Virus record (IMG/VR): IMGVR_UViG_3300020042_001016 | Coordinates: 1-31,752 of that record | DNA from: a virus | Taxonomy: Duplodnaviria; Caudoviricetes | DNA: 31,752 bases | Strand: one strand, 5' to 3' | Part shown: positions 2,978-31,752 of the stretch, piece after piece | Layout of the letters: every line of letters begins with the position of its first letter | Numbering within the stretch: the stretch's first letter is position 1 | Made by a program: the position numbers and the translations under genes | The notes under the pieces: generated by a model | What the model was told of the DNA's origin: nothing | Database searches by the model: none | Seen by the model: the letters and a program-made list of their open reading frames with translations, nothing else

Positions 2978-5900
2978 TTATCTCCTTGCCTTACTAGGCT
3001 TGCGATGCAAAAAATCTAGGGGTGACTTAATCTCAGGTGGTAGATCTTTTGGTTTTGCTGATCTAACGTGAGCACGAATTCCATGCATCATGTCGTAGAG
3101 TTTATCCGAACCAGCCTTTGTTGAGCCATTTCCTATAGCCGCCACCACGTCAGCAGGGAATACAAATTCCCCATCCGCCAGCATGGCAGGAATGTCGTCT
3201 GACTGACCATCACCCTCACCAGAAACAGCGTCTCCACCACGGAAATCCACCCTCATCTTGCCACCAGACGCCATAAGCGGTGTAGACATGCCTCCACTTG
3301 CATAACGACCATAGCGAGTTCCTGTAGCCCCTCCAGCCGCCATCAAAGGGGTAACCAAGCCACCACTTGCGGCTTGCAAGTTTTGGTAGTCAGGGTTAAA
3401 GAAGCTTTCAATAGGTTGGAGTTCGCCAAACTTGTAGTAGGGGCTGGTCTCTGGCGCACCAAGCTGTCCAAACTTGTAGTACATGGGCATTTCAGAATCG
3501 GTTGCTTGTGTCATTTCAGATAAAGAAAGTGGCGATGGTGGTTGCATTTCAGCAAATTGGTTCTGTTCAACTTCAGTAGGTGCAACTATCTGCTCATTTT
3601 GCAGATTTAGCAACTCCCTAAACTGATCCACATCTGAGGGCTGTTGTTCAGCAAATGTTTGAAACTCTTGTGGAGCCTGAATGGTTTCTTGGATCTCCTC
3701 AGGAGCTCGTGCAGACAAGGGGCTGGCAAAGGGTTCGTCTGTCTCTTGTGACGCCAAGAACGTAGGTTTGAGCGGCTTTGGAGCTACTCCAAGAGATGTA
3801 GCGTCCTGAGGGTTGAACTGTTGAGCAAAAGACACCTCCTCAGGTTGTTCAGGCGCTTTGGTCTTTATGACCTTGGGCTTAACGGGTTTGAGATCAGGTG
3901 TCTTCTCTGAAGGCGGAGCTACGTAGACCCAAGGTTTGCCAGTCTTAGGGTCTAGGGTGATGCTGTAGTCTGGGTTGTCTTTTACTGAAGGAACAGGAGG
4001 TAAGACGGGTTTAAATGGATCTTCGTCTTCGGGTTTTTTATCTTCGTCTACGAGTTTTTTAACTTTGTCTTCAGGTTTTTTAATTGGAGGAGGTGGCGGT
4101 TTTGGCTTCCAATCAGGAATGAGGTCTACAGGTTTTGTAGGTATAACAGAATCTTGTTTGGTATCTTGTTTGGTATCTTGTTTTGGAAGAATGGTTGCGT
4201 TAGTTATTGGCGTATTAGGAAACAGACGCTCCAAACTAACTGGTGCTCCATCTGGCGTGTAACCAATAATTCCTTGATCTAAGTCTTCTTGCGTAACACG
4301 TTGAGTCGCACGAGCAGAATCATCCACTCGCATAGCTTCACCAGACTCATTTCTAATAATGTAATTATCACGATTGATTTGCTGACCCTTAGAGTCGTAA
4401 CCCAAAACATTATCAGGATCTGTATCTTGTGCAGGCTTAACAATCGTTGGAACGTAATACTCTATAGGTCTACCCTGTGAGTCATAGTCCAAAACAACTG
4501 TAGTTACGTCTCTTCCGCTTGGATCAATTTCAATGGATGTCAACGGCTTTAGCGGGGGAGGATTTAAAGCTTCCCACAATTGAGCGGCTTCACGTCTTGC
4601 TTGCTGTAACTTTTCAAATTCAATCTCTTCTGGCGCTCCAGCCTCACCTGTGTATGTAAGCAAATCAAATAATGTACCTATAGGGTTAGCTTTCCCTAAA
4701 GTCTTGAACGCATCTGTTGCCTTGTATAGTTTGCTTGCTTGTTGAGGCGCTGTCTTTGCTTCAATATCAAAAATTCCAAGCAGAGCATTTGCTTCTTCTT
4801 TTGTAATGTTTGCTCGTTGAGCGGCAGACACATATTCATTCTTCAAAAGATCTGGGTTGTAGTGCGCTAATGCTCTCAAAACATCGCTTGGCATTGTTGC
4901 GCTCTTAACACCCATGCGCTCAAGCGAACGCATAACACGAGCATCATCTTCTAAAGTCCCTGCGGCAGACACCAATTTGTTTGTTGTTGAATCAATGACA
5001 ACTTTAATTTGTCTTTCATTTCCGTTGGCGTCAATGTCGACTACAAACGCTTCTTTAGAAAACGGATTAATGTTGAACTTGTTTGGATCTACATATGGTT
5101 TGGGAGGTGGTTCAAAGTCAGCCATCTCACCCAAACGAGCTTGAGCAAACATAGTGTCAGTCACTAAGTTAATGCCAATGCCACCTTTTTCTGGCTTGTA
5201 CCCAGCCAATGTCTCAAACGACTCTGTATTTGCCTGACGTATAGCTTGGTCAGCACGAGTGTTAAGAGTGTCTTCAGGGGAAGTTGTAGCAAGAGCCTTT
5301 GCCTCAGCCTCAGATGGATCACGTTGAAACTTGTCTTTAAAGAATTGAGTAACCTCTTCAACATCAGTAAACAATGGGTCAAGGTATGTATTAATCTTTG
5401 GAAACTGTTGGGCTTCTGGAGTCGCACCAATATAACTTTGCAGTTCCTCTTGAGTTGGATTGCGACCCAATGATTCTTGGAACATTTTGGTAATTTCATC
5501 AACATCCGTATACAAGGGGTCTACATATACTCCCATTTTTGCCACTTGTTGGGCTTCTTCAAACTGCCCCCTAAACGCCATTACTTCTTCTGGAGTTGGA
5601 TTTCTGCCTAAATAGCCGTTGAAAAAATTAATTATCTCTTCTTCAGTTGTAGCAAATGGATCAGCTTCTGCTCTTGCTTGAGCCAACAATTGTTCTTGGT
5701 CAACGTCAGATTTAACAAACCTCTCTATTTGTTGAGGCGTTAAGTTGGTGACGCCTTCACGAGCAAATGCTTGACGTGCTTGCTCTTCAGTAACAGATTT
5801 TGTTTTGATGTAAGAATCAATGTCTTTGTTGACTTCTGAAGGGGTGGAGTAAAAAGCAAATTTTTGTATTTCCTCTGCGGTAGCTGGTCTTCCAAACTTG

Positions 5901-6793
5901 TCGCTAATCTTCTTGTAAGCAATTACGCCATTTGCGGCTGATTGCAGACCAGAGGTAAGGAGAGCTTGAGTGGCGGCGTCCTCGATGGGCTTGTTGAGTA
6001 GTTGGGCTTGGATGGTGGAACTTAAAACATTCTTTGCGGGTACGGGAAGCTCGGAGTAGCCGGGGATCAAGTTCAACATCCCCGCTGTCGATCCTGCCAA
6101 CGACCCACTCAAAGACGCTTTAATTTGATCCGAAGATTGCCCTGTTGCTACGCCTTGTGCAACCGTAGCTGATGCATTGACAATTGCTGACGTGATCTGT
6201 GGATTTTTTACCAAATCATTTACATAAGGCGTAAACTTTTCAGCACCAATATTTACTGATGAATTGATAATTGCAGACTGTAAAGCTTTCTCGAAAGGAA
6301 CGCCTGAAGCTACTGCAACCGCAGTTTGTGCAACAGCAGTTGATACGGCTGTGATTGTGGCGGCAGAGACTCCTGCTGGTAAAGCGGCGGCAACGAATGG
6401 GCCTATGTAAGCCGCCGCATAAGGCATTGCAACCATCAAAAGAAGTTGTCCAGCAGGCTTGGCTAAGATCTCTTCTTTTACAACATCTTCTACTTTAGCC
6501 AAAGCTTTTGAGACTGGCTGAACAACAGGTTGAATAATTGCGTCATCAACTTGTGACGCAACATTGCTTACTGTTTGAACTGGATTAGTTACTGCGGCTT
6601 TGGCATTAGAAGCACTAGCTTGTTTCCAAAACTTTTTATACTCAGGCAAACCAGTATTAGGATTGATTGTCCCAGAACCACCATGCGCTTTCAGCAATCT
6701 TGCTTCTTCAGGGCTGATGTGAGCCAACATGGTGTCACCACCACGACCCTTAGAGACTAAGTCTTGTATTTGCTTTTTTGTCAGCTTTGTCAT
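2978..6793 (-). CDS. Giant internal virion/ejection protein, ~1271 aa, with tape-measure-like C-terminal module
   Basis: Start placed at MTKLTKK (6793), just after the upstream TGA. Contains an N-terminal GRGGDTMLAH..GGSGTINP.TGLPEY module, Ala-rich hydrophobic helices, internal repeats, a Pro/Lys-rich linker and a C-terminal xAxGG..G.G.GQSDDIPAMLADGEFV module. Confidence 0.8.
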   Translation of the reverse strand: MTKLTKKQIQDLVSKGRGGDTMLAHISPEEARLLKAHGGSGTINPNTGLPEYKKFWKQASASNAKAAVTNPVQTVSNVASQVDDAIIQPVVQPVSKALAKVEDVVKEEILAKPAGQLLLMVAMPYAAAYIGPFVAAALPAGVSAATITAVSTAVAQTAVAVASGVPFEKALQSAIINSSVNIGAEKFTPYVNDLVKNPQITSAIVNASATVAQGVATGQSSDQIKASLSGSLAGSTAGMLNLIPGYSELPVPAKNVLSSTIQAQLLNKPIEDAATQALLTSGLQSAANGVIAYKKISDKFGRPATAEEIQKFAFYSTPSEVNKDIDSYIKTKSVTEEQARQAFAREGVTNLTPQQIERFVKSDVDQEQLLAQARAEADPFATTEEEIINFFNGYLGRNPTPEEVMAFRGQFEEAQQVAKMGVYVDPLYTDVDEITKMFQESLGRNPTQEELQSYIGATPEAQQFPKINTYLDPLFTDVEEVTQFFKDKFQRDPSEAEAKALATTSPEDTLNTRADQAIRQANTESFETLAGYKPEKGGIGINLVTDTMFAQARLGEMADFEPPPKPYVDPNKFNINPFSKEAFVVDIDANGNERQIKVVIDSTTNKLVSAAGTLEDDARVMRSLERMGVKSATMPSDVLRALAHYNPDLLKNEYVSAAQRANITKEEANALLGIFDIEAKTAPQQASKLYKATDAFKTLGKANPIGTLFDLLTYTGEAGAPEEIEFEKLQQARREAAQLWEALNPPPLKPLTSIEIDPSGRDVTTVVLDYDSQGRPIEYYVPTIVKPAQDTDPDNVLGYDSKGQQINRDNYIIRNESGEAMRVDDSARATQRVTQEDLDQGIIGYTPDGAPVSLERLFPNTPITNATILPKQDTKQDTKQDSVIPTKPVDLIPDWKPKPPPPPIKKPEDKVKKLVDEDKKPEDEDPFKPVLPPVPSVKDNPDYSITLDPKTGKPWVYVAPPSEKTPDLKPVKPKVIKTKAPEQPEEVSFAQQFNPQDATSLGVAPKPLKPTFLASQETDEPFASPLSARAPEEIQETIQAPQEFQTFAEQQPSDVDQFRELLNLQNEQIVAPTEVEQNQFAEMQPPSPLSLSEMTQATDSEMPMYYKFGQLGAPETSPYYKFGELQPIESFFNPDYQNLQAASGGLVTPLMAAGGATGTRYGRYASGGMSTPLMASGGKMRVDFRGGDAVSGEGDGQSDDIPAMLADGEFVFPADVVAAIGNGSTKAGSDKLYDMMHGIRAHVRSAKPKDLPPEIKSPLDFLHRKPSKARR
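4151..4183. repeat. 12-bp tandem repeat (atcttgtttggt, ~2.75 copies) encoding KQDT-KQDT-KQD
   Basis: Read directly: atcttgtttggt atcttgtttggt atcttgttt. Confidence 0.9.
5270..5905 (-). repeat. About five degenerate ~40-aa protein repeats (T..E[EV]...F...LGR.P..EE) in the giant ejection protein
   Basis: KFGRPATAEE, TEEQARQAFAREG, TEEEIINFFNGYLGRNPTPEE, DPLYTDVDEITKMFQESLGRNPTQEE, DPLFTDVEEVTQFFKDKFQRDPSEAE. Confidence 0.8.
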
Positions 6794-6794
6794 A

Positions 6795-7067
6795 TCAGTT
6801 AACCGATGGGTTGACAGCATTGACTAGCTCTTGCGCCCAGTCTTGCCAATTGTTGAATGCATCCGCCATTGGTATTGCCTCATTGCTAAACACATCAATA
6901 GCTCGAATACCGTTCCCCCAAATCTTCCAATCTGTTTGAGGGCTTGGTATTTCAAGTTGTTGTGCCGCATATAGCTCACACATCAAGGATGCCCATGATT
7001 CAAACGTATGTCCCCTTGGGTCATATACCAACGCAACATTAAGAGGACTATTAGTAGCCACGTACAT
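6795..7067 (-). CDS. Small hypothetical protein after the nozzle (Trp-rich); start may be GTG at 7061
   Basis: Fills the gap between nozzle and ejection genes. AGGGGA lies 5-6 nt before the GTG at 7061. Confidence 0.75.
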   Translation of the reverse strand: MYVATNSPLNVALVYDPRGHTFESWASLMCELYAAQQLEIPSPQTDWKIWGNGIRAIDVFSNEAIPMADAFNNWQDWAQELVNAVNPSVN

Positions 7068-9030
7068 CCCCTATGTTTGCCGCTAACAATAAGCGACCAA
7101 GTTGGTAGTCTCCGCCTTGCGTGTTGCTGAGAAACTTCAATCGCAGTTCACGTCGTTGTTCACGCATATCCACTCTATGTGTTTCAGGATCAAAGAGGTA
7201 CGGCCCTGTCGTGCTGTCATACGCCTGCGCATATGGTCTACCAGTCACGTACACCTCCATCTCGCCTGATTGAATAAAGTCAGGCTCTATCCACTCTAGA
7301 TGCAACCATACGTTGTCGCCAACCATCGATGGCTGTGAAGGCCCACCAGAGACGAGTCCAAGATCATTTGTTTCAAAGTAGCTCTCAATCGCATTGATGG
7401 CTATTCCTTGAATAGAGTCAGTCCCTATTTCATGTTGCCACAAAGACACCAACGACATGGTAGCGCCCAATAGCAATTGAAATCCTGAACCAACTGGAAT
7501 AGAAGCAGACAAGACATCTGCTGATGTGTATCCAGTACCACGATTGGCAATTACCACCGTGGTTACTATTCCTCCTGCAACCGTAATGTCTGCTGTTGCG
7601 CCAGTGCCAGTACCGCCAGTCAGAGCTTTAGAGAGGTACGTACCATTGGTGTACAAAGTTCCACCAGCAGAAATACTATAAAAATTTACGCCACCAGTTG
7701 AATTTATTGTAGTTCCAGCTTTAATTGGATAATGGAACACCTCTGAAAAATATCCAGAAGCTCTTTGCGAACCATTGGCAAGACCAGTGTCATACCAAGT
7801 GTTCTCACGTATGTTGTAAATAATTGCATCAGTGCATTCTGTGGCGTCTCCACGTGGGTAAAACCACCAAATCTCACCAAAGCGTGGGACTTTTGTTGCC
7901 CAAACTTTTTGTCTTTGCGAATAGTTTAGGTTGTCAAAGAAGTAGTTTTGGTTCATGTTATTGGGGATCTCTTTGACCACACCGTTGTACATGAGGAAAC
8001 GATCAACACCGCACCAATAATAAATGCCGTCATACTCAATGGCAGATTGGCTAGAAAGAATTGATGATTGGCTGGTAATAATGTCATAGCGCCAATATTG
8101 AGCAGGCGTTCCAACGCCACCAATGTAGGACACCCTTACCAAGCTATCTAAGCTCCAAAACAACCCTGAAGGCGAGTTTGAACCGCCCCTAACAGGTAGC
8201 CCTTGGACAATCTTGCCAGTCGCCACATTAACCTCGTTAGCGTCCGCAGAGACCCAATCATTTAAATTAGCCGCCGAACAGTTTCTAATAAAACCATTGT
8301 TGCCATACACAAAAACATAAGGGTGTAGGGTAACCACGCCACCAGAAACGGATACGTTGTTGTCAAAGGTTATGGTCACAGTACCACTAGCAGTTGCTGG
8401 ATTGGAGATGACAACGGTAGTGGTTGAAACGGAGACCACAGTAGTGTTTGCAGGTATGCCAGTGCCTGTAACGGTTTGTCCAGCGCCAACCAAGGAATTA
8501 GCGACAGACAAAGTGATAGTTGTATTGGTGTTGACAGTAGTGGCAGTGGCGGTAAAGACGCCAATGCGAGTCATGGTGGTTCCAGTGGAGGAGCCAGCAA
8601 GAACGGGGGTGTTGGTGGAGTTGTCGATGAGTTGGAGGTTTTGACCGGGGTGCGCAAGGATCACACTCGCCCCTCCCCCACCTACATCAAAAAACCCATC
8701 AAACTGCCACAAATTGTTGGCGTTTGGCGTAAAGTAACTCAGCGTAAAGTTTAAGAGCCCTGCGCCAATTCCATTGTTGTCAATTGGGAGCAATTGCAAA
8801 CCATCCGCATAGCCGTTGTAGACGTTGTTAAAAGCTTGTTGTGGGTTAACAAAGATCCCTCGACTAGGGCCTGCCAAGTTGTTTACGATCTCACGATAAC
8901 CGAGTATCTTGCGAGGACGACCACGTTGAAAGCGAACCCATCTACCGTCGTTGTAGAACTGTTTATCAAAAATAGTTCCATCCCGTTGGATGCCGGGCTG
9001 GGTGTCGAGGGCAAATACTTTCTTCGTCAT
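7051..9030 (-). CDS. Tail nozzle/stabilisation protein (P22 gp10 / T7 tail tubular B-like beta-propeller) with two inserted beta-rich domains
   Basis: 659 aa. N-terminal PGIQRDGT..WVRF.RGRP.KI.G motif, aromatic beta-propeller-like core (FGEIWWFYP..C...IIYN..E..WY), C-terminal IEPDF..R.LRLKF. Lies just before the ejection genes. Confidence 0.75.
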   Translation of the reverse strand: MTKKVFALDTQPGIQRDGTIFDKQFYNDGRWVRFQRGRPRKILGYREIVNNLAGPSRGIFVNPQQAFNNVYNGYADGLQLLPIDNNGIGAGLLNFTLSYFTPNANNLWQFDGFFDVGGGGASVILAHPGQNLQLIDNSTNTPVLAGSSTGTTMTRIGVFTATATTVNTNTTITLSVANSLVGAGQTVTGTGIPANTTVVSVSTTTVVISNPATASGTVTITFDNNVSVSGGVVTLHPYVFVYGNNGFIRNCSAANLNDWVSADANEVNVATGKIVQGLPVRGGSNSPSGLFWSLDSLVRVSYIGGVGTPAQYWRYDIITSQSSILSSQSAIEYDGIYYWCGVDRFLMYNGVVKEIPNNMNQNYFFDNLNYSQRQKVWATKVPRFGEIWWFYPRGDATECTDAIIYNIRENTWYDTGLANGSQRASGYFSEVFHYPIKAGTTINSTGGVNFYSISAGGTLYTNGTYLSKALTGGTGTGATADITVAGGIVTTVVIANRGTGYTSADVLSASIPVGSGFQLLLGATMSLVSLWQHEIGTDSIQGIAINAIESYFETNDLGLVSGGPSQPSMVGDNVWLHLEWIEPDFIQSGEMEVYVTGRPYAQAYDSTTGPYLFDPETHRVDMREQRRELRLKFLSNTQGGDYQLGRLLLAANIGDVRGY

Positions 9031-10265
9031 GTAAAGACGCCCCCAGCAACGCCAGTCGTAAAGTTTCCAGACCCCGTGACTTGGATTCCCGTGGCGGTTA
9101 CGTCAAGACGTTGAGTTCCAAGAATGGAGACGGCGAACTCCCCGATGCCGGGTCGATAAATCCCCGTGGAAGTCTCTGACGAAAAGTTCAACGCAGGCGT
9201 ACCCACTGAGCCATTGACCAAACTGATTGATGTAGCGCCTGCTTGGAAGGTGTTGGCGTTGAGGAAGTTTGTGCCATCGCAGATGAGCGTGGCTTGTTGA
9301 CCCGGCGGTATCACGGCGTTAGCCCCACCCACCACCCCTGTCGTCAAAGTCAACGAGTATCCATTGTCCGTCGTCTGATTTGACACCACATATAGATTAA
9401 CCACTGGAGGATACGTAACTGTTACGTTACCCGTCAAGCTACCAACAAATTCTTGGATCGTATTTTGAACTTCGTTCGAGGTTAAAGTGTAGTTACCCGT
9501 AACAATTGGCTTTACTAGTGCAGTAAAAGCAAAAGTTGAACTTACGCCATATCCAATCGTTACGTATTCTGTGCCTGTACAAACAATAAAAGACGATTCG
9601 TTTGGGTTGTATAGCTTGGTCAAAGAACCATCAATTGTGTTTGTAGCATCACAAGTAACAGTCAATGATCCAGTACCATTGTTCTTCAATAAAGTGAACC
9701 AATTATTTGCCAAACTCACGGCAACTGGAAGGTTTACTGTACCTGTACCACTACCCCAAACCTTTGTTTGCGCTCTGTCACTGCTTAAAAAGGTGTACCC
9801 ATTTGAAAAACTAGATGCTGGGTGCGTTAGGTTAAGAGTGCTAGAGATAGCTTGTAAACCAAGTCCAGCAAGAGTTGTGGCGTCTGCTGAAGATGTACCT
9901 GCACCAAAGTCAATAATAGACCATGTGCCAGCTACCGTAGGGTTGGCTGTGAGGTAGATGTATGAAGCCTTGTTTGCGGCAACAGAAATAATAGTATTTC
10001 CACTATAGTCAACCACCGTAAAAGCAGTTCCTGTCATGTTGCGTATCAAGGCGTCTGTACCAACCGAGGTTTGATTGGCAGGTGGCATATACAACTTGCG
10101 TCCTGCGGCGTTCGGCGTCACATTCATGATGCGAGCCGCATAGTCGTCAGTAGCATTGCCGTTGATAGGCCACGACAAATTGATGTCAGCAGTTAATGCA
10201 ATTGCACGAAAACTGACATCCGTTGGAAGGATGACGTCACCAGTGAAAGGAGATATATAACTCAT
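9027..10265 (-). CDS. Proximal tail fibre / tail appendage protein, 412 aa
   Basis: Thr/Gly/Asn-rich beta protein between adaptor and nozzle. Carries a GS...P.L.F..TGIY fibre module and ends TTGVAGGVFT. Confidence 0.7.
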   Translation of the reverse strand: MSYISPFTGDVILPTDVSFRAIALTADINLSWPINGNATDDYAARIMNVTPNAAGRKLYMPPANQTSVGTDALIRNMTGTAFTVVDYSGNTIISVAANKASYIYLTANPTVAGTWSIIDFGAGTSSADATTLAGLGLQAISSTLNLTHPASSFSNGYTFLSSDRAQTKVWGSGTGTVNLPVAVSLANNWFTLLKNNGTGSLTVTCDATNTIDGSLTKLYNPNESSFIVCTGTEYVTIGYGVSSTFAFTALVKPIVTGNYTLTSNEVQNTIQEFVGSLTGNVTVTYPPVVNLYVVSNQTTDNGYSLTLTTGVVGGANAVIPPGQQATLICDGTNFLNANTFQAGATSISLVNGSVGTPALNFSSETSTGIYRPGIGEFAVSILGTQRLDVTATGIQVTGSGNFTTGVAGGVFT

Positions 10266-10897: not shown

Positions 10898-10911
10898 CTT
10901 GAGTCTCCTTT

Positions 10912-13221: not shown

Positions 13222-13224
13222 GGT

Positions 13225-14673: not shown

Positions 14674-14675
14674 GG

Positions 14676-20790: not shown

Positions 20791-20791
20791 T

Positions 20792-21133: not shown

Positions 21134-21136
21134 GCA

Positions 21137-22207: not shown

Positions 22208-22219
22208 TGTGTTTCCTTG

Positions 22220-22474
22220 TCAGCATTTCCAACGTGCAAGCGCCGCCGCTTTACGAGTGGGCTTGCCTTTTTCGTCCTTCAGTGGGCCTGCCATCCCTGA
22301 CATACGAGCGCAGAAAGAGTCCTTACGTGCGCCCCCTTGTGGCTGAGGAGCCTTCAGATTGCTACCAGTCTCTCGGTTGTACTTCTGTCGACCTTTTTCG
22401 GTCAAGCCAGCACCCTTAGAGATTGGAAGCTTTTCTCCCCTGCCAACTGAAAGACTAACTTTCTTTTTGGTCAT
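22220..22474 (-). CDS. Small basic phage protein (DUF6321-like), 84 aa
   Basis: GLT.KGR.KYNRETGSNLKAP..RK.SFCARM.G..ALARWKC motif. The family name is recalled, not searched. Confidence 0.7.
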   Translation of the reverse strand: MTKKKVSLSVGRGEKLPISKGAGLTEKGRQKYNRETGSNLKAPQPQGGARKDSFCARMSGMAGPLKDEKGKPTRKAAALARWKC

Positions 22475-22779
22475 TTCACTTTGGCTGTCTTAGCTGACTG
22501 CTTAAAGTCTTGAGCCGTTGGAGCACCTTTGCTACCAACTCTTCGCATCTTTTCGCCAGATCCTTCAGCGATTCTTTCACGTTTTGCATTGATATTTTCA
22601 TACAAGCCGCCGCCTTTCATTTTTTTTGTAAAGACTTTATCAACTATTTCCATTCGTTGAGGCTTAGTCGTCACGTTATTGATAATTTTCAAACGCTCTG
22701 CTTTATCCTTCTTAGCAAACGAAGGGTTGTGCGCAATAGACGCCATCGATTTGTGTTGGGAAGGTGATTTGCTTGACAT
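22471..22779 (-). CDS. Small basic phage protein, 102 aa
   Basis: Start placed at MSSKSPSQH (TGATG coupling). C-terminal GLY.NI.AKRERI..GSGEKMR..GSKGAPT...FK.SAKTAK module follows an MKGGG motif. Confidence 0.75.
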   Translation of the reverse strand: MSSKSPSQHKSMASIAHNPSFAKKDKAERLKIINNVTTKPQRMEIVDKVFTKKMKGGGLYENINAKRERIAEGSGEKMRRVGSKGAPTAQDFKQSAKTAKVK

Positions 22780-23183: not shown

Positions 23184-23194
23184 TTTTATTCCTT

Positions 23195-23224
23195 AAAAAA
23201 AGTGGGAGCCGAAGCCCCCACCTT
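23195..23224 (-). terminator. Rho-independent terminator with C(UUCG)G loop
   Basis: Minus strand GTGGGGGC-TTCG-GCTCCCAC followed by TTTTTTT, just after the stop of the 387-aa gene. Confidence 0.9.
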
Positions 23225-23227
23225 GGT

Positions 23228-24391
23228 TCAGCACTCTACAGAGCCACCACGTTTCTTGGATGGTGTCACCGTAACTGATTTCTCAGTCTTGGTCACACTA
23301 CCAGAAGGTGGAGTTCCGCTAAACAGTTTCTTTACACCCCCTAAAAGGCGACGAGGAGCGCCGAGGATGGTATCCCGCATAGCTTCGTTATCTTCTCTCT
23401 CAGACGCCTTTTCAGCGCCCTTGCGAGCCATTTCACGATCATATATAGGATCATAGTCAGAGGAGTCTCCTCCTCCTGCCATCTTCTTTACTCTGCCACC
23501 TTTTTTGAAGGTTCCAGACAGTGCAGTAATGCTCACAGGAGCGGAGGGCTTCTTACGACCTTGCGACATTTCTACCGCCTTGCCGTCGTCCTGCACTACC
23601 TCACCACCCCTAGCATACTTTTTTAAAGCACCACCCTTTTTATAGCCACCAGCGTTTGACTTTGCTACGCCACCAGTCGTGGTATTGGTTTTGCCAGCAG
23701 GCGTACCAACAACATTACCGTCAACGTAGTTCATCACAGAGCCGCCTTTGGCGTACATGTGGGCTGTTCCACCTTTTTTGTAGCCACCGCCATTACCCAT
23801 CTTCACGTCACCAGTCTTGGCGGGTGAATGATTAGGCTTGGCTGTGCTCATTTTGGTGGAAGTTGAGGCTTTACCTTCATTGCTGATGATGCCGCCGTTT
23901 TTGTACCCGCCTTGACCCATAGCAACGCCGCCAGTAGCACACGACATACCGCCCTTCATCATTCCGCCCTTTTTGAGCTTCAGTGAAGTGCCTTTGCCGC
24001 CTTTGTGCTCTTGCATGTCGTGTTGCTTGAAAGCCTTTTTGATCATGGCTTTGTCTTGCGACATGTCAGCTTTACCACCCTTCTTCATGGCGGGTGTAGC
24101 CGACATGGGAGGAGCAGAAACCATAGGAGGAGTCATTGAACGACCAGCCATAGCTTTGCGACGCATTGCCATAGATGGTTTAGCAGGACGAGCAGATGGC
24201 ATCATTCCGCCACGAGCAGGCATGCTTGTAGGCATACGAGCAGGCATACGAGCAGGCATGTCAGAAGGCATACCTGACTGCATGGGCATAAACCCACCGT
24301 CAGCCTTCTTCACAGTACCACCCTTTTTGAGCTTCAGTTCGACTGTTGGCTCAGTAGTCATCATTTTAACCATTGGTTTGAATTGACCCAT
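23228..24391 (-). CDS. Lys/Gly/Met-rich basic protein with ~15 [hydrophobic]-[A/K]-x-G-G repeats, 387 aa; probable internal head protein
   Basis: Low-complexity and probably disordered. Contains LKKGG, MKKGG, YKNGG, YKKGG, YAKGG, YARGG, FKKGG, MAGGG and others. Last gene of the capsid block before the terminator. Confidence 0.85.
   Translation of the reverse strand: MGQFKPMVKMMTTEPTVELKLKKGGTVKKADGGFMPMQSGMPSDMPARMPARMPTSMPARGGMMPSARPAKPSMAMRRKAMAGRSMTPPMVSAPPMSATPAMKKGGKADMSQDKAMIKKAFKQHDMQEHKGGKGTSLKLKKGGMMKGGMSCATGGVAMGQGGYKNGGIISNEGKASTSTKMSTAKPNHSPAKTGDVKMGNGGGYKKGGTAHMYAKGGSVMNYVDGNVVGTPAGKTNTTTGGVAKSNAGGYKKGGALKKYARGGEVVQDDGKAVEMSQGRKKPSAPVSITALSGTFKKGGRVKKMAGGGDSSDYDPIYDREMARKGAEKASEREDNEAMRDTILGAPRRLLGGVKKLFSGTPPSGSVTKTEKSVTVTPSKKRGGSVEC
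24230..24259. repeat. 12-bp tandem repeat (aggcatacgagc) within an MPxx array
   Basis: Encodes MPAR-MPAR inside MPSD-MPAR-MPAR-MPTS-MPAR. Confidence 0.85.
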
Positions 24392-24393
24392 GA

Positions 24394-25086: not shown

Positions 25087-25105
25087 TGTCTTGCTCCTTA
25101 TTAGC

Positions 25106-25125
25106 GCAGGAGCCGAAGCCCCCGC
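25106..25125 (-). promoter_or_regulatory. UUCG-tetraloop hairpin after the MCP stop, lacking a U-tract (mRNA stabiliser or weak attenuator)
   Basis: GCGGGGGC-TTCG-GCTCCTGC followed by GCTAATAAGGAG. Near-copy of the 23202-23221 stem. Confidence 0.7.
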
Positions 25126-25131
25126 TTGGGT

Positions 25132-26046
25132 TTAGACGCCGGGTGTGCCGTACATCGCACGAGGATCGGTGAAACCAACTTGGTAACGCTCTGTCGCTTT
25201 GTAGCGCATAGAGTCAGTCTCAAAGTCGCCTTCCATCGTCTTCTCCAGCTTACGACGCATCAAAAGCTTCATGCCTTCGGGAGCGTCGGTCTGAACCCAC
25301 CATGCGCTTGCATTGGTCAAACGAGACAACACAGCCGCACCTTCGTCCAACAGACCGATGGATTTGACAGGGTTGATGTCGTTGTTTGCGTTGCCTGAGC
25401 GCAGAACGGATTTCAACAAAACTTCGGCTTGGAAGACGTTGCCGGGAGCCACTACAAGTTGACGTGGAACCAAACGAATCTTCTTGCCGTTGTTGTCCAC
25501 AGCTTGGCGAATTTGAATCAACATCTGTTCGAGAGATGTTTGGCTCAAGTTGGCGGCAGTGGTCAACAGGTTGCTGAAAGTACCATTCACGATGGGGTGT
25601 GAGGCGGAGTTCAGCTGAACGCCATCACCACCGGGGTACGAACTATTGAAAGCACGATTCAACACGTTTGCTGACAAAGTTTCTTTGGTTTCAATCAAAG
25701 ACTGTGCCAAGTGACGTGCATAAACCTGACCAATACGAATATGGTCGCCATCTTCAACCAACACTTTGGTCAATGCGAAGGCGAGGCCATACACGTTGTA
25801 CACATAGCGTTGTAAGAAGAGAACACCACCTTGTTGGTAGCTGACAGGAGTACCGTCAGGCAACTGGGGTGCGGCTCCAAATCCATAAAGGACTGGTTCT
25901 TCGTGGTAGTTACGGGGGATACCTTCTTGTTCACGAAAAACTCGTGACCATTCGTCGGTTCGTTGATCGTAGACGCCATCGAAACATTCATTCAAGATTG
26001 GTTCGACGATGCTACGAAAGTCGGTACTTCGCATTGGAGCGGCCAT
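25132..26046 (-). CDS. Major capsid protein (HK97 fold, Mu gpT-like family), 304 aa
   Basis: GFG.AP...DG....Y, YGLAF..T....ED, GGDGV.L.S..HP, P..LVV.P, GDFET...RYKA.ERY..GF.DPR..YG.PG. Strong AAGGAGG RBS. Confidence 0.9.
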   Translation of the reverse strand: MAAPMRSTDFRSIVEPILNECFDGVYDQRTDEWSRVFREQEGIPRNYHEEPVLYGFGAAPQLPDGTPVSYQQGGVLFLQRYVYNVYGLAFALTKVLVEDGDHIRIGQVYARHLAQSLIETKETLSANVLNRAFNSSYPGGDGVQLNSASHPIVNGTFSNLLTTAANLSQTSLEQMLIQIRQAVDNNGKKIRLVPRQLVVAPGNVFQAEVLLKSVLRSGNANNDINPVKSIGLLDEGAAVLSRLTNASAWWVQTDAPEGMKLLMRRKLEKTMEGDFETDSMRYKATERYQVGFTDPRAMYGTPGV

Positions 26047-26059
26047 GGTCTACTCCTCC

Positions 26060-26662
26060 TTAGATTGCTGTGCCTGCCGCACCAGCGAACTGGTACTCGG
26101 CGATGGTTGCACGAACGATGACATAGTCATCACCCCAAGCGTTGTCGGCATAGGGGCCTATGTCAACGATACGCATTTGGGCGCTATTTCCTGATCCAGC
26201 CAAAGTGGTGGACAAAGTGGCTTGGGACAAACCAGTGGTGGTAGAACCAGCCGTGGTGTTGCTCAAGTCAGCTTCGTCGCCAATAGAGGTTTGTGCAATA
26301 GTGCCATCAGTTTGAATTTCATACACGATGTTGGGATCGGAGTAGAAATACGCAACGACAGAACCAACGAGGAAAGACTCGTTTGCAGGCCAAGTGTTTG
26401 AAACACGGCGACGACCAGTGGAGTCAGTCCATTCGACGCCTGAGAAGGCTCCGAGGAATGCGTCACCAGCGGCGGCAACCACGATGTAACCACCAGTGTT
26501 CATCTTGACGGGCTGACCCTTCAGGATGGTAGTGGCGTAGCCAGCGGAGACGTTACCGCTGGTAGATACTGCTTGAATGCCGTTGGCAAGCGCTTGAGCA
26601 CGATCCAGACCTGATGGGTGGAAAGCGGGACGCAAGCCAAACGGAGCGTTAGTTGAAGACAT
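26060..26662 (-). CDS. Putative capsid cement/decoration protein, 200 aa
   Basis: APFGLRP N-terminus, I.KGQPV, G.F.GVE.TD and DPNIVYEIQ.DG. Immediately upstream of the MCP, AAGGAGG RBS. Confidence 0.7.
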   Translation of the reverse strand: MSSTNAPFGLRPAFHPSGLDRAQALANGIQAVSTSGNVSAGYATTILKGQPVKMNTGGYIVVAAAGDAFLGAFSGVEWTDSTGRRRVSNTWPANESFLVGSVVAYFYSDPNIVYEIQTDGTIAQTSIGDEADLSNTTAGSTTTGLSQATLSTTLAGSGNSAQMRIVDIGPYADNAWGDDYVIVRATIAEYQFAGAAGTAI

Positions 26663-26695
26663 AGTCTTCCTCCTTTTTTGGTTGTCCTGCCCGTA

Positions 26696-27238
26696 TTAAA
26701 AGACGGGCGTACGGACGGATTGGTCAAATTGTCCGAATCCTTCACCTTCAACCTGTCCAAGCGCTTTGCCTGAACTGTCACGATTACCTTGAAGCTGTTC
26801 GATTTGGACTTTGATTTTGTCCGCTTCGTCCATTGGTGCTTCATGATGCATCTGCAACATAATGTCTTGGTAAACGTCCTCAGGAAGTTTGCACAAGATC
26901 ATTTCATTGCATGCGACAAATCCAACATGTTCGCCAGCTTTTACACGGTAATTGTCAAACCCGGGGAACTCTTCTGCTTTCACAGGCACGTACCCAAGTC
27001 GAATCCGTTTATCCAAACTGTCGTAACTATTGGTGGTTGATAACCAGCAAAGATGCCACCCTTTAATTGCAGGTAGCTTCGGCAGGGCGCTTTGTGTCCA
27101 CTCATCACTCCACATCTTGCGACGTTCCTGTGCTGAGACGAACTTCTCATCGACAGAGGCACGAGGCAGATCTTGCGAAGATCTATTTTCCCGACCACCA
27201 GCGTTGAGAGATTTTTTGAGACGAGATTCTGTTGCCAT
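26696..27238 (-). CDS. Head-module protein of unknown function, 180 aa
   Basis: P...GWHL.W.S..R.RLGY.PVKAEE..M.L.K.P pattern, between scaffold and cement genes. AGGAG RBS. Confidence 0.75.
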   Translation of the reverse strand: MATESRLKKSLNAGGRENRSSQDLPRASVDEKFVSAQERRKMWSDEWTQSALPKLPAIKGWHLCWLSTTNSYDSLDKRIRLGYVPVKAEEFPGFDNYRVKAGEHVGFVACNEMILCKLPEDVYQDIMLQMHHEAPMDEADKIKVQIEQLQGNRDSSGKALGQVEGEGFGQFDQSVRTPVF

Positions 27239-27240
27239 AA

Positions 27241-28215
27241 TTAACTCCTATATCCTTGGTTTTGTCGTGCTTCGAGTGCGTAGCGTTTAATCATCTTGTT
27301 GCGCTTTTCTGAGTTATCCCAGAAACCCGCATCCTTCATGGCACGTACTTGCTCTGGTGACAGAGTAAAAGTATTTTTTGCACCACTACCGTTGATGTTT
27401 TCACGCCCAGAACTTGTCACAACGCTCCTTGGTCTACGAGTCGATCTCTCGTCATTTCCTTCAGTATAACGGTGGGGAGCACGTTTAGCAACACGTCGAT
27501 CAAGCTCTTCCCAATATTCTTCGGTGCTTGGGTTCCAACCTTCTTTAACAAGCTTCTGATCGATCACTTTTGCAATTTGGCTGTCCTCGTCATCCCCATT
27601 TGGGTCATACCACGAGTTGCGATCCATCCACTTGGCGGCATGGCGTTGCATCTCACGATTGTCCTCAATGGGTTGGTTTTGGGTAGTTCGAGCCGCCTGC
27701 TCCTTGAGCGCACGAATGGACTCAATCTCTCGACGTGTCTCGTACCACATGTCCTGCGCCTTGCCAAACGCATCACCATCGCTGGCGCTTGTAGCCTCAG
27801 ACATCTTCATCTTGGCGTACTGCAAGCGAAGTTCTTTGTCCTCCAAAGCCTTGTCAATACGAGCCAAATCAGCGGAATGGGTCTTGCGCTCTAACACAGA
27901 CAAGCGTTCTACAAGCTCTTGACGCTCACGTCGTAAGCTGTTTAACAACATGTCCTTTTCGACATTGGTTTGCTTAATGTATTCCTTCTTGGCACGTCGA
28001 CGATTGCGTCGAGCGGCTCGAATAGCCTCCGTGTCATCAGGATGATCCTCGTCGTCACCAGCTTCTCCGCCAGCGGCTTGGGATGTCTCAGCCCTTGTAT
28101 CTCCATCATCAGAGTCGTCAGGGGCAAGGTGATCAGGTAAGTCAACTATGACTGACCCATCTTTTTCTTCGGAGACCTTGATGTCATCCAGTTTTTCTTG
28201 TGTTTCCGTACTCAT
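27241..28215 (-). CDS. Putative capsid scaffolding protein, 324 aa
   Basis: Acidic N-terminus, long coiled coil, W..RN.WY..YWEELD.R and a basic C-terminus with L..EQV. Lies between portal and MCP. Confidence 0.75.
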   Translation of the reverse strand: MSTETQEKLDDIKVSEEKDGSVIVDLPDHLAPDDSDDGDTRAETSQAAGGEAGDDEDHPDDTEAIRAARRNRRRAKKEYIKQTNVEKDMLLNSLRRERQELVERLSVLERKTHSADLARIDKALEDKELRLQYAKMKMSEATSASDGDAFGKAQDMWYETRREIESIRALKEQAARTTQNQPIEDNREMQRHAAKWMDRNSWYDPNGDDEDSQIAKVIDQKLVKEGWNPSTEEYWEELDRRVAKRAPHRYTEGNDERSTRRPRSVVTSSGRENINGSGAKNTFTLSPEQVRAMKDAGFWDNSEKRNKMIKRYALEARQNQGYRS

Positions 28216-28655
28216 AAGAAGGCTTTCATGGCTAATGGGTTACCAGTCACGGTGGCAATGATTTCATGGTCGTTTAGAACCATAAACAATGCTGGGTCTT
28301 CAAAGTCGTCCTCATTTGGAACTTTGACTTCCCATCGATCTCCGCCCCACTTGGGTACACGTATGTAGTCGCCAACTGAACACCAAGAGCCCTCAGGCCA
28401 TGACGCCATAGTGTCTCGATTCTTGAAGGCGAGGGGGCCGATCATCAGCACCTTTGCAACCATGTTGTTCCACTTTTCGGTCTCTTTAGTTTCTTCAACC
28501 AAGATGATCCCTGCGCTTGTTGCCTTCTTCTTTGTTCGACGTAACTGCACCAAAATGCGTCCGCCAAGAGGTCTTGCACCCGGGTCTACGACTGGAAAAG
28601 CCCAATCCACTTCAGCTTGGTCAAAAGCTTCGGGTTCATTCATTTTCATCTTCAT
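28212..28655 (-). CDS. groES: Phage co-chaperonin GroES-like (start may be 28649 or 28643)
   Basis: PLGGRILV, TSAGIILVE mobile loop, V..IGP.A, VGD.I...K.GG and LND.EI.A.V. Confidence 0.9.
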   Translation of the reverse strand: MKMKMNEPEAFDQAEVDWAFPVVDPGARPLGGRILVQLRRTKKKATSAGIILVEETKETEKWNNMVAKVLMIGPLAFKNRDTMASWPEGSWCSVGDYIRVPKWGGDRWEVKVPNEDDFEDPALFMVLNDHEIIATVTGNPLAMKAFL

Positions 28656-28821
28656 CCTTTAATAGTTTGTTTAAGATGTCCATGGATTCTTGTAATCCAT
28701 AAAAGTTGCCAACCATGCGTTGATATATCTCCCATGTGCTAGCGTTTCCGCTTGCGAGTGAGGTAGCTATTTCAGCCTGCCGAGACTTCAACGCACCGAT
28801 TAAATCTCCTACCGTGTTCAT
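28636..28821 (-). CDS. Small hypothetical helical protein, 61 aa
   Basis: L..G....WE.Y...VG...GL pattern. Abuts the upstream TAA and overlaps the groES start. Confidence 0.8.
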   Translation of the reverse strand: MNTVGDLIGALKSRQAEIATSLASGNASTWEIYQRMVGNFYGLQESMDILNKLLKDEDENE

Positions 28822-28977
28822 TTATTTTTTCTTTGCCTGTGCCAATCCTCCTTGTTTTGGTTTTTGATTGTTGCCCCCTTTAGGTTGCATGCTCGTGCCA
28901 TCTAGCTTCTCGCCCATAGCGATGCGCTTGTGTTGGGGAACGAGTTCGCTCTTTTGCTCTTGATCACTGGTAGCCAT
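28822..28977 (-). CDS. Small basic protein, 51 aa
   Basis: Not in the ORF track: MATSDQEQKSELVPQHKRIAMGEKLDGTSMQPKGGNNQKPKQGGLAQAKKK. AAGGA RBS. Fills the portal-to-28821 gap exactly. Confidence 0.8.
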   Translation of the reverse strand: MATSDQEQKSELVPQHKRIAMGEKLDGTSMQPKGGNNQKPKQGGLAQAKKK

Positions 28978-31480
28978 TTTGGTTTCCTTGGTTAGTTAAA
29001 GTAAGTGCAGTCTTCATCTGCTCGTTTTGCAATTTTGCCGTGTCACGGGTCAATCTTGCAGATTCGATCTTTTCTTTGGTTTCGTTGTCGCCTTGTGCAA
29101 TAGCCATCTTTAACTGATTGTCTTCTTGGGCTATTGCCATTGCATCTTGTTGCTTCTTCATAGCCAATTGGACGTCTGCTTGATCCTTAGCGGCACGACG
29201 TTGGGTTTCTGCCATGCTGGTATCCATCAAAACCTTAGCCTCTGGCGTCAAAGGCGCTGTAGGTTGCATCTGCTGAAGTTGCTGTTGCATCTGTTGGATG
29301 ATCGGCAGGATGCCTTGGAACACAGTTTGCGTATCCAAGTTAACGTGTTGAGAAGCCACGGCAAAGAGCTTGTCGATCTTAGAGGTGAACTCCTCGTCGT
29401 CGTATTCCTCGATAGGACGCCCCATAGCCTTGGTTACGTAGCCGTTTGTGCGATTTAGATACCAAAGGGTCAAGTGTTGCTTTAAGTGCTCCATGACCTG
29501 CGGAATGAAGGCAGGAGCCATCAATGGGTTTGCACCCAACACTGGGTCTTTGGCAAAGTCCAAGTGGGACTGTATGTGCGCCAAATGGTCTTGGTCGATG
29601 TAGGCAAATGCCGCTTGACCAATAGCCATAGCCACGTTCTCGTTGGCAGGGTCACGTTTCTCAGGATCTGGCACGTTTTTCATCAACTCATTCACAGCAG
29701 GTATCTTGATTTGCTTCAAGAACCGCTCAATTACGGCTTTTCTGTTAAACAAATCAGGATTCTTGTCCATCACCTGCATAACAGCTTGAATCTGCGCCAT
29801 GCGCTGTGTTTCAGAGAAGATATGTGGGTCAGAAACAGGTACAACGTCGGTATTTCTGCGGAAATCCTCTTTGGTGATCTCCAAATCCTCGACTATGTCG
29901 CCCTTTTTCTGGTCATCCAAGTACCAACGATTCAATCTACCCAAAATTTTCAGCAAACGACTTTGACTGTCGTGCAAACGAGCGTGAACGGCGGCAAATA
30001 CAGCCGCACCCTGCTCGATAAGCGCTTGAGTCGTGCCTACAGGGGCTTGGGCGTTGACGTCAGCGATCTTTTCCTCAGCGGTGGTGATGACGCCCTTGGC
30101 AGACTTCTCCAAGAAGCCCATCAATTGGAAGAGGACTGGGCTTGGGGGGTTGAAGGGCATGGGCATGGCGATCTTTTTGATGTCATCGATGCCCGGCGCT
30201 CCCTCGATCTCCACCACCTGCGTCACCTCAATCTGCTGTGACTGTCCAGAGATACGTGCGCCCTTGATCTTCAGCATGGTTGCGCTGTTGTTGATGTGCG
30301 CCGAGTCCAACAAAGCCCTAAGAGAGCCTGTCAAAGCGGCGGCAAGCCCACCAATGAGGTGCGGCAAGCCCACAGCATAGGCTCCACGCCATGGAATGAA
30401 CTTGAACTCCACCATCCAATCCAACTTGGTCATGGTGTCATCGCCCTCTTCCCAATTGCGATACAAGCCAATGACCCTACTCTCCAAATCGTCCACCATC
30501 ATGATGTATGGAGCCATCTCACCCTTGGATCGAGTGTCGTCCTCAAGCTCTAACCATGTGTAGATATGGTAGACACGACGAATACCGTCTTCGTTGTCTT
30601 CGTACTTCTTGCCTTCAATCTTATTTGAAGCCTTCTCTGACTTGCTTTCCTCAGGTTCCATTGACGCACGTATGTAACTGGTGTCGATGTACAAGCCAGA
30701 AGCAATACGACGCTTAAATTCCCAATCAGTAATGTCCTGAACTTCGGTCACACGTTGGCTGGTGTAGAAGTTTGCGGCTGAAAATGGCAACAAAATGTTG
30801 TCAATGGGGACAAATTCGGCACAAGGACGACGTTTTTGCTCGTCATACCAAAGCTTCATGAACTGTGAGCCACCCAAAGGTAGCTGAGTCAGCAGTTGTT
30901 CTTGCTCGTCACGGAACTCTTCGATCTGCTCCGTTAACTGCCAGTTCATGTAGTCACGTTTGCGCTCGGCAATAGCCATCTTTTCTTTGTCGACAGTGCC
31001 TAGGATCTTGGTTCGAGTAGGCCCATCAGGTGGGAAAAGCTCTTTGATGGCACGAGCGGCAAAGTCTACGCAGGCTTCAGCCATGACGGGGTGGACGACC
31101 TTGCTAGCGCCCATGAAGTTAGCACCTCCCGGCGCATCATGCCCCATCCCCGTACGTCTAATGCCCTCTTCGTACTGCTTGTCCCGTTGTTCACGAGCAG
31201 ACTTGTCCTTCTCCAACAAGCCAATGTATCGCATAGCGATGCCATCCAAGTCGAATTCGCTTATGTCTTCATCTGCAAGGTTGGCGTAGAAGTCTTCATC
31301 CTCGTCAGGGCCTTTGTAGTTGTCCATCTTGACCACAGCAGAGCCATCAGGAAGCTCCTCAATCTCTGAGTCATCAAGCTCCAACGGCACATCAACGCTA
31401 CCGTCTTCGTTTTCGGTCATGGACTCCATGCCTTCTATGTTGCGATCCGCTTCTGGGTCAATCGGCATTTGTGTAGCCAT
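28964..31480 (-). CDS. Portal protein (podovirus type), 838 aa
   Basis: Acidic N-terminus, GAS.VVHP.MAEACV.F.ARA..EL.P..GP, YMN.QL, LPL.GS.F.K, PVGTT.AL.E.G and a C-terminal Gln-rich barrel coiled coil. Heads the head module. Confidence 0.9.
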   Translation of the reverse strand: MATQMPIDPEADRNIEGMESMTENEDGSVDVPLELDDSEIEELPDGSAVVKMDNYKGPDEDEDFYANLADEDISEFDLDGIAMRYIGLLEKDKSAREQRDKQYEEGIRRTGMGHDAPGGANFMGASKVVHPVMAEACVDFAARAIKELFPPDGPTRTKILGTVDKEKMAIAERKRDYMNWQLTEQIEEFRDEQEQLLTQLPLGGSQFMKLWYDEQKRRPCAEFVPIDNILLPFSAANFYTSQRVTEVQDITDWEFKRRIASGLYIDTSYIRASMEPEESKSEKASNKIEGKKYEDNEDGIRRVYHIYTWLELEDDTRSKGEMAPYIMMVDDLESRVIGLYRNWEEGDDTMTKLDWMVEFKFIPWRGAYAVGLPHLIGGLAAALTGSLRALLDSAHINNSATMLKIKGARISGQSQQIEVTQVVEIEGAPGIDDIKKIAMPMPFNPPSPVLFQLMGFLEKSAKGVITTAEEKIADVNAQAPVGTTQALIEQGAAVFAAVHARLHDSQSRLLKILGRLNRWYLDDQKKGDIVEDLEITKEDFRRNTDVVPVSDPHIFSETQRMAQIQAVMQVMDKNPDLFNRKAVIERFLKQIKIPAVNELMKNVPDPEKRDPANENVAMAIGQAAFAYIDQDHLAHIQSHLDFAKDPVLGANPLMAPAFIPQVMEHLKQHLTLWYLNRTNGYVTKAMGRPIEEYDDEEFTSKIDKLFAVASQHVNLDTQTVFQGILPIIQQMQQQLQQMQPTAPLTPEAKVLMDTSMAETQRRAAKDQADVQLAMKKQQDAMAIAQEDNQLKMAIAQGDNETKEKIESARLTRDTAKLQNEQMKTALTLTNQGNQNGYQ

Positions 31481-31482
31481 AG

Positions 31483-31752
31483 TTATTTCCTTTTAACTTT
31501 TATCAAGCCACCCTTGCGCTTGGTCAAATCTGTTCTTTTATCGTTTAGTTCCATAAACATGGTGTCAGAGTTTTGAGCAACATGCACCTTACCACCATGC
31601 TTGAAGGGTGTGCTTTGCACAATAGGTGCAGGCTCTTCCTCTTGCACAGGCTGAGGCATCTCGAATTCTGCACCAGCGGCTCCAGTTCCAAGGGGTACGC
31701 CAATCTGTTGGTACAGGGGCATGCCTTGCTTTACCTCTTCACGCATCTCAGG
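31483..31752 (-). CDS. C-terminal end of a probably larger protein (frame open to the right edge)
   Basis: Frame reads CCT GAG ATG from the edge (PEMREEVKQGMPLY). Ends with FKHGGKV and KRKGGLI motifs. Stop lies 2 nt before the portal ATG. Confidence 0.75.
   Translation of the reverse strand, partial: PEMREEVKQGMPLYQQIGVPLGTGAAGAEFEMPQPVQEEEPAPIVQSTPFKHGGKVHVAQNSDTMFMELNDKRTDLTKRKGGLIKVKRK

What the first reader, a model, noticed from the sequence alone, without database searches (positions are those of the whole stretch)
2978..31752. A shared hydrophobic-[A/K]-x-G-G tag across unrelated virion-module proteins: candidate packaging or maturation-cleavage code
Seen: the same short motif recurs in otherwise dissimilar proteins. 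It appears ~15 times in the 387-aa protein (23228-24391), as MKGGGL in the 102-aa protein, as weaker PKGG and PKQGGLA in the 51-aa protein, as FKHGGKV and KRKGGLI at the C-terminus of the pre-portal protein, and as AASGGLV, MAAGGA, YASGGM and MASGGKM at the C-terminus of the giant ejection protein. It sits in low-complexity, mostly terminal regions, and I did not see such clusters in portal, MCP, scaffold or adaptors. Known: phages use short signals for internal proteins (T4 capsid-targeting sequence and gp21 cleavage; Prp cleavage at F|A in staphylococcal phage 80alpha), and tape measure proteins such as lambda gpH carry FATGG/YATGG in a processed C-terminal region. Inference: this phage uses one linear tag to load cargo into the prohead and/or to mark cleavage sites. 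No recognisable prohead protease is present in the window.
Basis: partly seen in the sequence, partly recalled or inferred. Interest (0 to 1): 0.85.

Follow-up and report, generated by a model that had tools for sequence, protein, structure and literature searches.

The report
Gly-Gly junction code on phage cargo
A five-residue signal ending in two glycines marks the joints and ends of several unrelated proteins of this freshwater phage, proteins likely carried inside its head, and it sits where related protein modules in T4-like phages carry their head-protease motif, so it is likely a maturation cut site read by an enzyme not yet identified.

Summary
The motif is real: [FYML][AK]xGG occurs 18 times against 2.2 expected in this HTVC023P/Caulobacter-RW-like podophage. 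In 160 related loci it is confined to four cargo-type families and the scaffold (e.g. 595 vs 18; 156 vs 23; scaffold 17 vs 0.7), keeps its position, and is about threefold depleted in other virion proteins. Corrections: 10-12 copies, not ~15; the 51-aa protein has none; scaffold orthologues do carry it.

The same small basic modules are free-standing without a signal in T7-type phages, follow a gp21-type x-x-E in T4-like phages, and follow the Gly-Gly motif here. In one module the motif's hydrophobic residue lines up with the start Met and with that Glu. Best reading (0.55): a cut site, predicted hydrophobic|[AK]xGG. No cut is shown and no conserved protease was found. Rival: an uncut docking tag (0.27).

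The motif also opens a module shared with tape-measure proteins; lambda gpH has FATGG near its unmapped cleavage site. The scan noted this motif before in this lineage and in crAss-like phages; one such note has the T4 comparison.

The parts
23228..24391 (-). 387-aa basic (net +41), low-complexity protein with 10-12 motif copies at residues 21, 29, 102, 139, 163, 204, 213, 250, 259, 295, 304, 379
   Evidence: sites 21, 102, 163, 250, 259, 295 kept in 53-59 of 59 orthologues; 5-14 copies per orthologue
24317..24331 (-). first copy LKKGG, closing a nearly invariant 20-residue N-terminal segment
   Evidence: 59 of 59 orthologues
22471..22779 (-). 102-aa small basic polyprotein; its last module (GLYxNI, phrog_16028) is opened by the motif
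22606..22620 (-). motif MKGGG at the junction before the GLYxNI module
22220..22474 (-). 84-aa free-standing DUF6321 module without the strict motif; in most relatives it is fused and preceded by the motif
   Evidence: Pfam PF19846 E 2.6e-23; 35 of 43 contexts with motif, 7 free-standing
2978..6820 (-). 1280-aa putative ejection protein carrying the C-terminal motif cluster and GEFV module
   Evidence: role inferred from its place after the tail genes
3260..3373 (-). four motif copies AASGG, MAAGG, YASGG, MASGG (residues 1150-1187)
3005..3247 (-). GEFV module, homologous to a module of siphophage tape-measure proteins in which the motif forms the start
   Evidence: profile hits 8zdo E 3.8e-12, 8rk3 E 1.4e-4; phrog_17300 E 3.5e-4
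6638..6748 (-). N-terminal GRGxDTxLAH module of the giant protein; preceded by FAMGG in phage DSL-LC04
31483..31752 (-). C-terminal end of the pre-portal protein (cut by the window edge) with FKHGG (31591-31605) and KRKGG (31507-31521)
   Evidence: orthologues are mostly 540-1540 aa, variable, with several copies
27241..28215 (-). putative scaffold protein; degenerate copy QAAGG (28066-28080) in the acidic N-terminal linker
   Evidence: 17 of 45 orthologues strict, expected 0.7
25132..26046 (-). major capsid protein, no strict motif; places the phage (88.5% to MW202545, 77% to Caulobacter phage RW, 40.6% to HTVC023P)
28964..31480 (-). portal protein, no motif here; C-terminal motif in 2 of 36 orthologues

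Best explanation
The [MFYL]-[AK]-x-G-G-x-[VA] motif marks module junctions and ends of proteins that likely lie inside the prohead, and is likely a maturation cut site, predicted to be cut after the hydrophobic residue by a protease not yet identified. Shown: enrichment, restriction to four cargo-type families plus the scaffold, positional conservation, depletion elsewhere, and the junction position. Inferred: the tagged proteins are in the prohead; the cut frees small basic modules and cargo domains with the N-terminus they have as single genes, and chops the 387-aa protein and the scaffold linker, as gp21 does in T4. Cutting and loading may go together, as in T4's capsid-targeting sequence.
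For: (1) Same modules, three junction types (distinct junction contexts counted). GLYxNI module: in loci found with a T7-like query it is free-standing, M-A-K-x-GLY (51 of 56, none with GG). In loci found with a T4-like query it follows L-x-E-[AE]-K-R (6 of 6). Here it follows the GG motif in 17 of 23, and free-standing copies lack GG. The motif's hydrophobic residue lies at -4, in register with the start Met and with the Glu. T4 gp21 cuts after L/I-x-E (PMC9026906, passages). DUF6321: Glu within 6 residues in 66 of 66 T4-type contexts and no GG; GG motif in 35 of 43 here. (2) The scaffold carries it in an acidic linker, so basic composition or DNA binding does not explain it. (3) Depletion: 12 against 37.1 expected in untagged virion proteins; only 12 of 468 control patterns are as low, 7 of them this motif or variants. 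(4) crAss001 gp45 has about eight such junctions. Its two cryo-EM-resolved pieces (214-245, 425-552; PMC10172136, passages) each lie between two motifs and sit 420 A apart, and 425 is the Ala of N-A-F-G-G. (5) Re-matching published MALDI peaks finds gp45 above decoy in 0 of 13 gel bands, while five proteins of 77-97 kDa are found. (6) A cut at lambda gpH F733 would give 79.8 and 12.5 kDa against about 78 and 14 kDa reported, site unknown (PMC12617516, passages).
Against: No cut has been observed. No conserved protease was found: no prohead-protease family above cut-off in the window (the capsid protein's hits to fused protease-capsid PHROGs aside); retropepsin 0 of 5 genomes; HslV-like peptidase in only 4 of 22 near-complete relatives. 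Many copies lie a few residues from the C-terminus or 8-13 residues apart, which suits multivalent binding as well. A site specified mostly downstream of the cut would be unusual (own knowledge). Cleavage of the T4-like cyanophage polyproteins is itself inferred from the motif; the DUF6321 query contained the junction, which biases that count; the 'T4-like' and 'T7-like' sets were not classified locus by locus. The crAss authors read gp45 as one intact chain; gp46, which has no motif, was also missed in the gel. The paper's estimate for lambda (about residue 710, modelled 691-730) lies upstream of 733. Caulobacter phage RW has the motif in only one of its annotated virion-module proteins, the GEFV-bearing gp066, apart from a loose match in the capsid protein.
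Confidence: 0.55

Rival explanations
1. Uncut docking or capsid-targeting tag: each copy binds an inner-capsid, portal or GEFV-module surface, and several copies give avidity that loads cargo into the prohead.
For: Tandem copies (commonest spacings 12, 13, 8, 9 residues), C-terminal copies, 5-14 copies in the basic protein. In crAss001 the AFGG at 425 is ordered in the portal-bound domain (PMC10172136, passages). The motif opens the GEFV module in tape-measure proteins. Depletion elsewhere fits mis-targeting too.
Against: Free-standing copies of the same modules lack the motif in this lineage (the window's 84-aa protein; 7 of 43 and 3 of 23 contexts). Scaffold and portal need no cargo tag yet gain it. 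The two other ejection-type proteins lack it (1 vs 6.7; 3 vs 8.1 expected).
Confidence: 0.27
2. Flexible hinge or gene-fusion scar with no reader: M-[AK] is a relic start and GG a linker, spread by duplication.
For: The hydrophobic position is in register with the start Met and is often Met.
Against: F and Y are common there; free-standing forms have no GG; sites stay fixed while linkers change; the scaffold gains it without any fusion; untagged virion proteins are depleted of it.
Confidence: 0.1
3. Site for a host protease, acting during assembly or after ejection.
For: No conserved phage protease found.
Against: The motif spans phages whose records name hosts in Alpha- and Gammaproteobacteria, Bacteroides and mycobacteria, and it is on the scaffold, which is not ejected.
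Confidence: 0.08

Closest known systems
T4 gp21 prohead protease with its L/I-x-E sites and capsid-targeting sequences of internal proteins (PMC9026906, passages)
   Same: One short motif on scaffold and basic internal proteins, often redundant; the same modules in T4-like cyanophages carry x-x-E at the matching junctions.
   Different: Different motif, predicted to be specified mostly downstream of the cut; internal and C-terminal copies; podophage; no gp21 homologue found.
crAss001 cargo protein C1, gp45 (PMC10172136, passages)
   Same: Virion cargo built of modules joined by [AK]xGG; the nearest Pfam-labelled cluster to the GEFV module by language-model features is crAss_CARG1 (score 0.84, a lead only).
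   Different: Homology of GEFV to C1 not shown (hhalign probability 0.3 and 0.1; PF25725 no match); the passages read mention no such motif and no cleavage.
Tape-measure proteins of siphophages (PDB 8zdo, 8rk3; lambda gpH)
   Same: GEFV module opened by [FY]AxGG; gpH is cleaved near this region by an unknown agent (PMC12617516, passages).
   Different: One or two copies in one tail protein, against a signal on several head proteins here; the lambda match is not significant.
Polyvalent proteins (PMC5512222, passages)
   Same: Large, variable multidomain proteins beside packaging genes, proposed to be packaged and processed.
   Different: Processing there is ascribed to built-in metallopeptidase domains; the passages read describe no shared junction motif; LPD or MPTase domains were not found in the one pre-portal protein scanned with Pfam.

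Membership tests
T4-type prohead maturation system (gp21) | Cut after L/I-x-E | tested here: not met
   Junction consensus is [MFYL][AK]xGG
T4-type prohead maturation system (gp21) | Herpes-fold or Clp-type prohead protease gene in the head module | tested here: inconclusive
   None recognised by Pfam or PHROGs in 35 window proteins, 71 selected proteins of two relatives or 55 of 85 remaining ORFs of two complete relatives; unassigned head proteins remain
T4-type prohead maturation system (gp21) | Shared short motif on scaffold and internal basic proteins | tested here: met
T4-type prohead maturation system (gp21) | Substrates are cut in the prohead | not testable with these tools
   Only indirect crAss001 data
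Capsid-targeting sequence | N-terminal peptide of about 10 residues sufficient for packaging | not testable with these tools
   Position differs: mostly internal and C-terminal copies
crAss cargo protein C1 portal-binding domain (PF25725) | Profile match of the GEFV module | tested here: not met
crAss cargo protein C1 portal-binding domain (PF25725) | Same fold | tested here: inconclusive
   Models of low confidence, mean pLDDT 52 and 65
Tape-measure GEFV-type module | Profile homology with the motif at the module start | tested here: met
   E 3.8e-12 to 8zdo and 1.4e-4 to 8rk3; 33 Arthrobacter phage records, annotated as tape measure in all rows shown, by tblastn
HTVC023P-type / Caulobacter RW-like podophages | Capsid protein homology and portal-GroES-scaffold-capsid gene order | tested here: met

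The most novel reading that the evidence does not exclude
One undescribed enzyme family would then mature the head cargo of HTVC023P-type and crAss-like podophages and the tape-measure proteins of many siphophages, including the unexplained cleavage of lambda gpH. The module is present in 14 of 14 genomes of this lineage and in 0 of 13 genomes that carry the same small modules without the motif (confounded by kinship, and the profile also misses crAss001 and lambda). It has invariant acidic residues in 52 podophage-type sequences.
Probability: 0.15. Interest if true: 0.92.

Novelty: new variant of a known kind. Interest (0 to 1): 0.72.

Why it matters
This lineage is common (about 2000 stretches estimated in IMG/VR) and has no recognised maturation protease. 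A processing code here would point to a new protease or self-processing module, give boundaries for the domains of large delivered proteins, and offer a tag for loading or releasing cargo. It also gives an exact, cheap prediction for an old open question: where and how lambda gpH is cleaved (predicted F733|A734; PMC12617516 states that site and catalyst are unknown).

Tried and rejected
Folding the GEFV module: mean pLDDT 52 with 29 close sequences and 65 with 52 diverse ones, confident only in the C-terminal helices. Foldseek found no match; VIA best Z 2.9. Uninformative.

Portal (75-690) with the GEFV module: no answer, score 0.00, partner fold uncertain. Not counted either way.

GEFV against crAss C1: not significant.

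180-aa head protein as the protease: 395 relatives; invariant W65, D73, G82, E112, H131 in 69 sequences. The HTVC023P orthologue (probability 97%) has Gly at E112 and no clear Asp at D73; no PDB or Atlas annotation. Not supported, not excluded.

HslV-like peptidase: 5 of 31 genomes, rejected as the general reader. Retropepsin PF13975: 0 of 5. A weak metallopeptidase hit in HTVC023P gp28 is below cut-off (E 0.013).

The 51-aa protein was rejected as a carrier. The 387-aa protein has no solved relative.

A profile search of the GEFV module over the 1.84-billion library was not obtained, so its full range is open.

Literature: nine searches listed no paper describing the motif; only open-licence texts are covered. 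Extended Data Fig. 3 of PMC10172136 (peptide map of gp45) and its supplementary file 1 could not be seen and bear on cut versus uncut.
Full report
SETTING. The window is the virion module of a podophage, all genes on the minus strand: pre-portal protein, portal, 51- and 61-aa proteins, GroES-like, scaffold, 180- and 200-aa proteins, capsid, 230-, 387-, 134-, 102- and 84-aa proteins, adaptors, fibres, lysis genes, tail, then ejection-type proteins. The capsid protein is 88.5% identical to MW202545, 77% to Caulobacter phage RW and 40.6% to HTVC023P. The labels 'scaffold', 'cargo' and 'ejection' rest on gene position and composition, not on a database hit.

OBSERVATION. In 37 ORFs the strict motif [FYML][AK]xGG occurs 18 times against 2.24 in shuffles: 10 in the 387-aa protein, 3 in the giant protein, 1 each in the 102-aa and pre-portal proteins, and 3 single matches in Gly-rich fibres. 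The independent test used 160 related loci, 1944 proteins after collapsing at 85%. Observed/expected: 387-aa 595/18.1, giant 156/22.7, DUF6321 group 30/1.4, scaffold 17/0.7, portal 3/2.8, and 0 or below expectation in adaptors, tail proteins, the other two ejection-type proteins and the 51-aa family. Pre-portal proteins give 100/14.5 given their GG count; the consensus is [GK]-[MYFL]-[AK]-x-G-G-x-[VA]. In two complete genomes the motif is in 4 of 71 and 4 of 80 mechanically called ORFs, the same four kinds. Six sites of the 387-aa protein are kept in 53-59 of 59 orthologues while linkers vary; other sites are lineage-limited (9-21 of 59). Untagged virion proteins hold 12 copies against 37.1 expected, among the lowest 12 of 468 control patterns; homologues are not independent, so this is a ranking, not a p-value.

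WHAT THE MOTIF MARKS. The small basic proteins are mix-and-match chains of modules, with the motif opening the internal ones. The window's 84-aa DUF6321 gene stands alone, lacks the strict motif, and starts about where the motif ends in fused relatives. These modules occur in 526 and 85 phage records. In S-RIP1 and DSL-LC05 they are single genes with no signal; in S-CAM1, ACG-2014f, RB11-B and Syn30 the DUF6321 module follows x-x-E, mostly within polyproteins. Two further sets of 80 loci extend this. For the GLYxNI module: 51 of 56 contexts free-standing in the T7-query set, 6 of 6 after L-x-E-[AE]-K-R in the T4-query set, 17 of 23 after the GG motif here. Start Met, Glu and the motif's hydrophobic residue fall four residues before GLY. 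T4 gp21 cuts after L/I-x-E (PMC9026906, passages), so the cut here is predicted after the hydrophobic residue. For DUF6321 the register is looser (Met at -4, motif at -5). Caveats: cutting of those cyanophage proteins is inferred, the DUF6321 query included its junction, and loci were not classified one by one.

WIDER LINKS. The GEFV module at the end of the giant protein is homologous to a module of two tape-measure proteins in the PDB, where YAGGG, YANGG or FASGG opens it. Lambda gpH has FATGG at 733; a cut there gives 79.8 and 12.5 kDa. PMC12617516 (passages) gives about 78 and 14 kDa, estimates residue 710, and says site and catalyst are unknown; the profile match to gpH is not significant. 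crAss001 gp45 has about eight [AK]xGG-type junctions; among 29 virion-region proteins scanned only gp45 matched. Its resolved pieces 214-245 and 425-552 (PMC10172136, passages) each lie between motifs, and the second begins at the Ala of NAFGG; the authors treat the chain as intact. I re-matched the MALDI peak lists of PMC6235969 (passages; supplementary file 8, parts 70-74 and 173) to 30 crAss001 proteins, gp50 only in part. gp45 was above decoy in 0 of 13 bands (best z 1.1), while gp20, gp22, gp23, gp25 and gp26 were found. gp46, without the motif, was also missed (best z 1.9), the portal band was weak, and no band between 15 and 35 kDa had been cut out. This is weak support.

Not found. No maturation protease was recognised in the window or in the relatives scanned. 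An HslV-like peptidase is in only 4 of 22 near-complete relatives. The 180-aa protein loses candidate catalytic residues in HTVC023P. The GEFV module is in 14 of 14 lineage genomes and 0 of 13 genomes with motif-free modules; kinship confounds this, and the profile misses crAss001 and lambda. Folding gave no answer.

MECHANISM. Most likely (0.55) the motif is a cut site used in the prohead: it frees basic modules and cargo domains, chops the 387-aa protein and trims the scaffold. An uncut multivalent docking tag remains open (0.27): tandem and C-terminal copies and the ordered AFGG in crAss001 fit it. A readerless hinge (0.10) and a host protease (0.08) fit worse.

COMPARISON AND NOVELTY. It appears to work like the T4 gp21 code but fails its defining motif and lacks a recognised enzyme, so it is a new variant, not a member. 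Nine literature searches listed no description of the motif. Passages of PMC5512222, PMC1796659 and 10.64898/2026.04.10.717836 do not mention it. Earlier notes of this scan report it in this lineage and in crAss-like phages. One gave me the crAss C1 lead and favoured an uncut tag; another, seen after my own test, makes the T4 comparison.

VERDICT. A real, conserved, lineage-wide signal; processing favoured but not shown; interest 0.72.

Noticed in passing
window 28964-31480 (portal N-terminus) and 27241-28215 (scaffold N-terminus): Portal and scaffold share an acidic N-terminal motif of the form E-x-D-G-S-x-x-V-x-L/M-P, seen in most orthologues of both; possibly a second assembly signal.
   Followed up: partly
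L080:4632-7226 and L047:4660-7233: The portal C-terminus has gained one or two copies of the motif; the scaffolds of these two loci lack it in their first 95 residues.
   Followed up: partly
L082:13996-15816 (MW202545): A ketoacyl-synthase-like gene (Pfam E 1e-15) with small neighbours sits between the tail gene and the ejection-type genes.
   Followed up: no
L082:10833-12071: An ejection-type protein ends in a long Cys/Ser repeat followed by two motif-like copies, with unusual Cys use throughout.
   Followed up: no
L379:16435-16887: HslV-family peptidase beside the small terminase; in 5 of 31 genomes searched.
   Followed up: yes
window 26696-27238: Conserved 180-aa head-module protein of unknown fold with invariant W, D, G, E and H among 69 aligned homologues; no PDB match.
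   Followed up: partly
window 28822-28977: The 51-aa family is conserved through a QHKRxAxG core, and a subset ends in GGL-x-x-x-KKK, a different pattern from the motif.
   Followed up: partly
L377:1291-10359: The giant-protein orthologue reaches 3022 aa; size among relatives runs from about 300 to 3000 aa with the GEFV module at the C-terminus.
   Followed up: no
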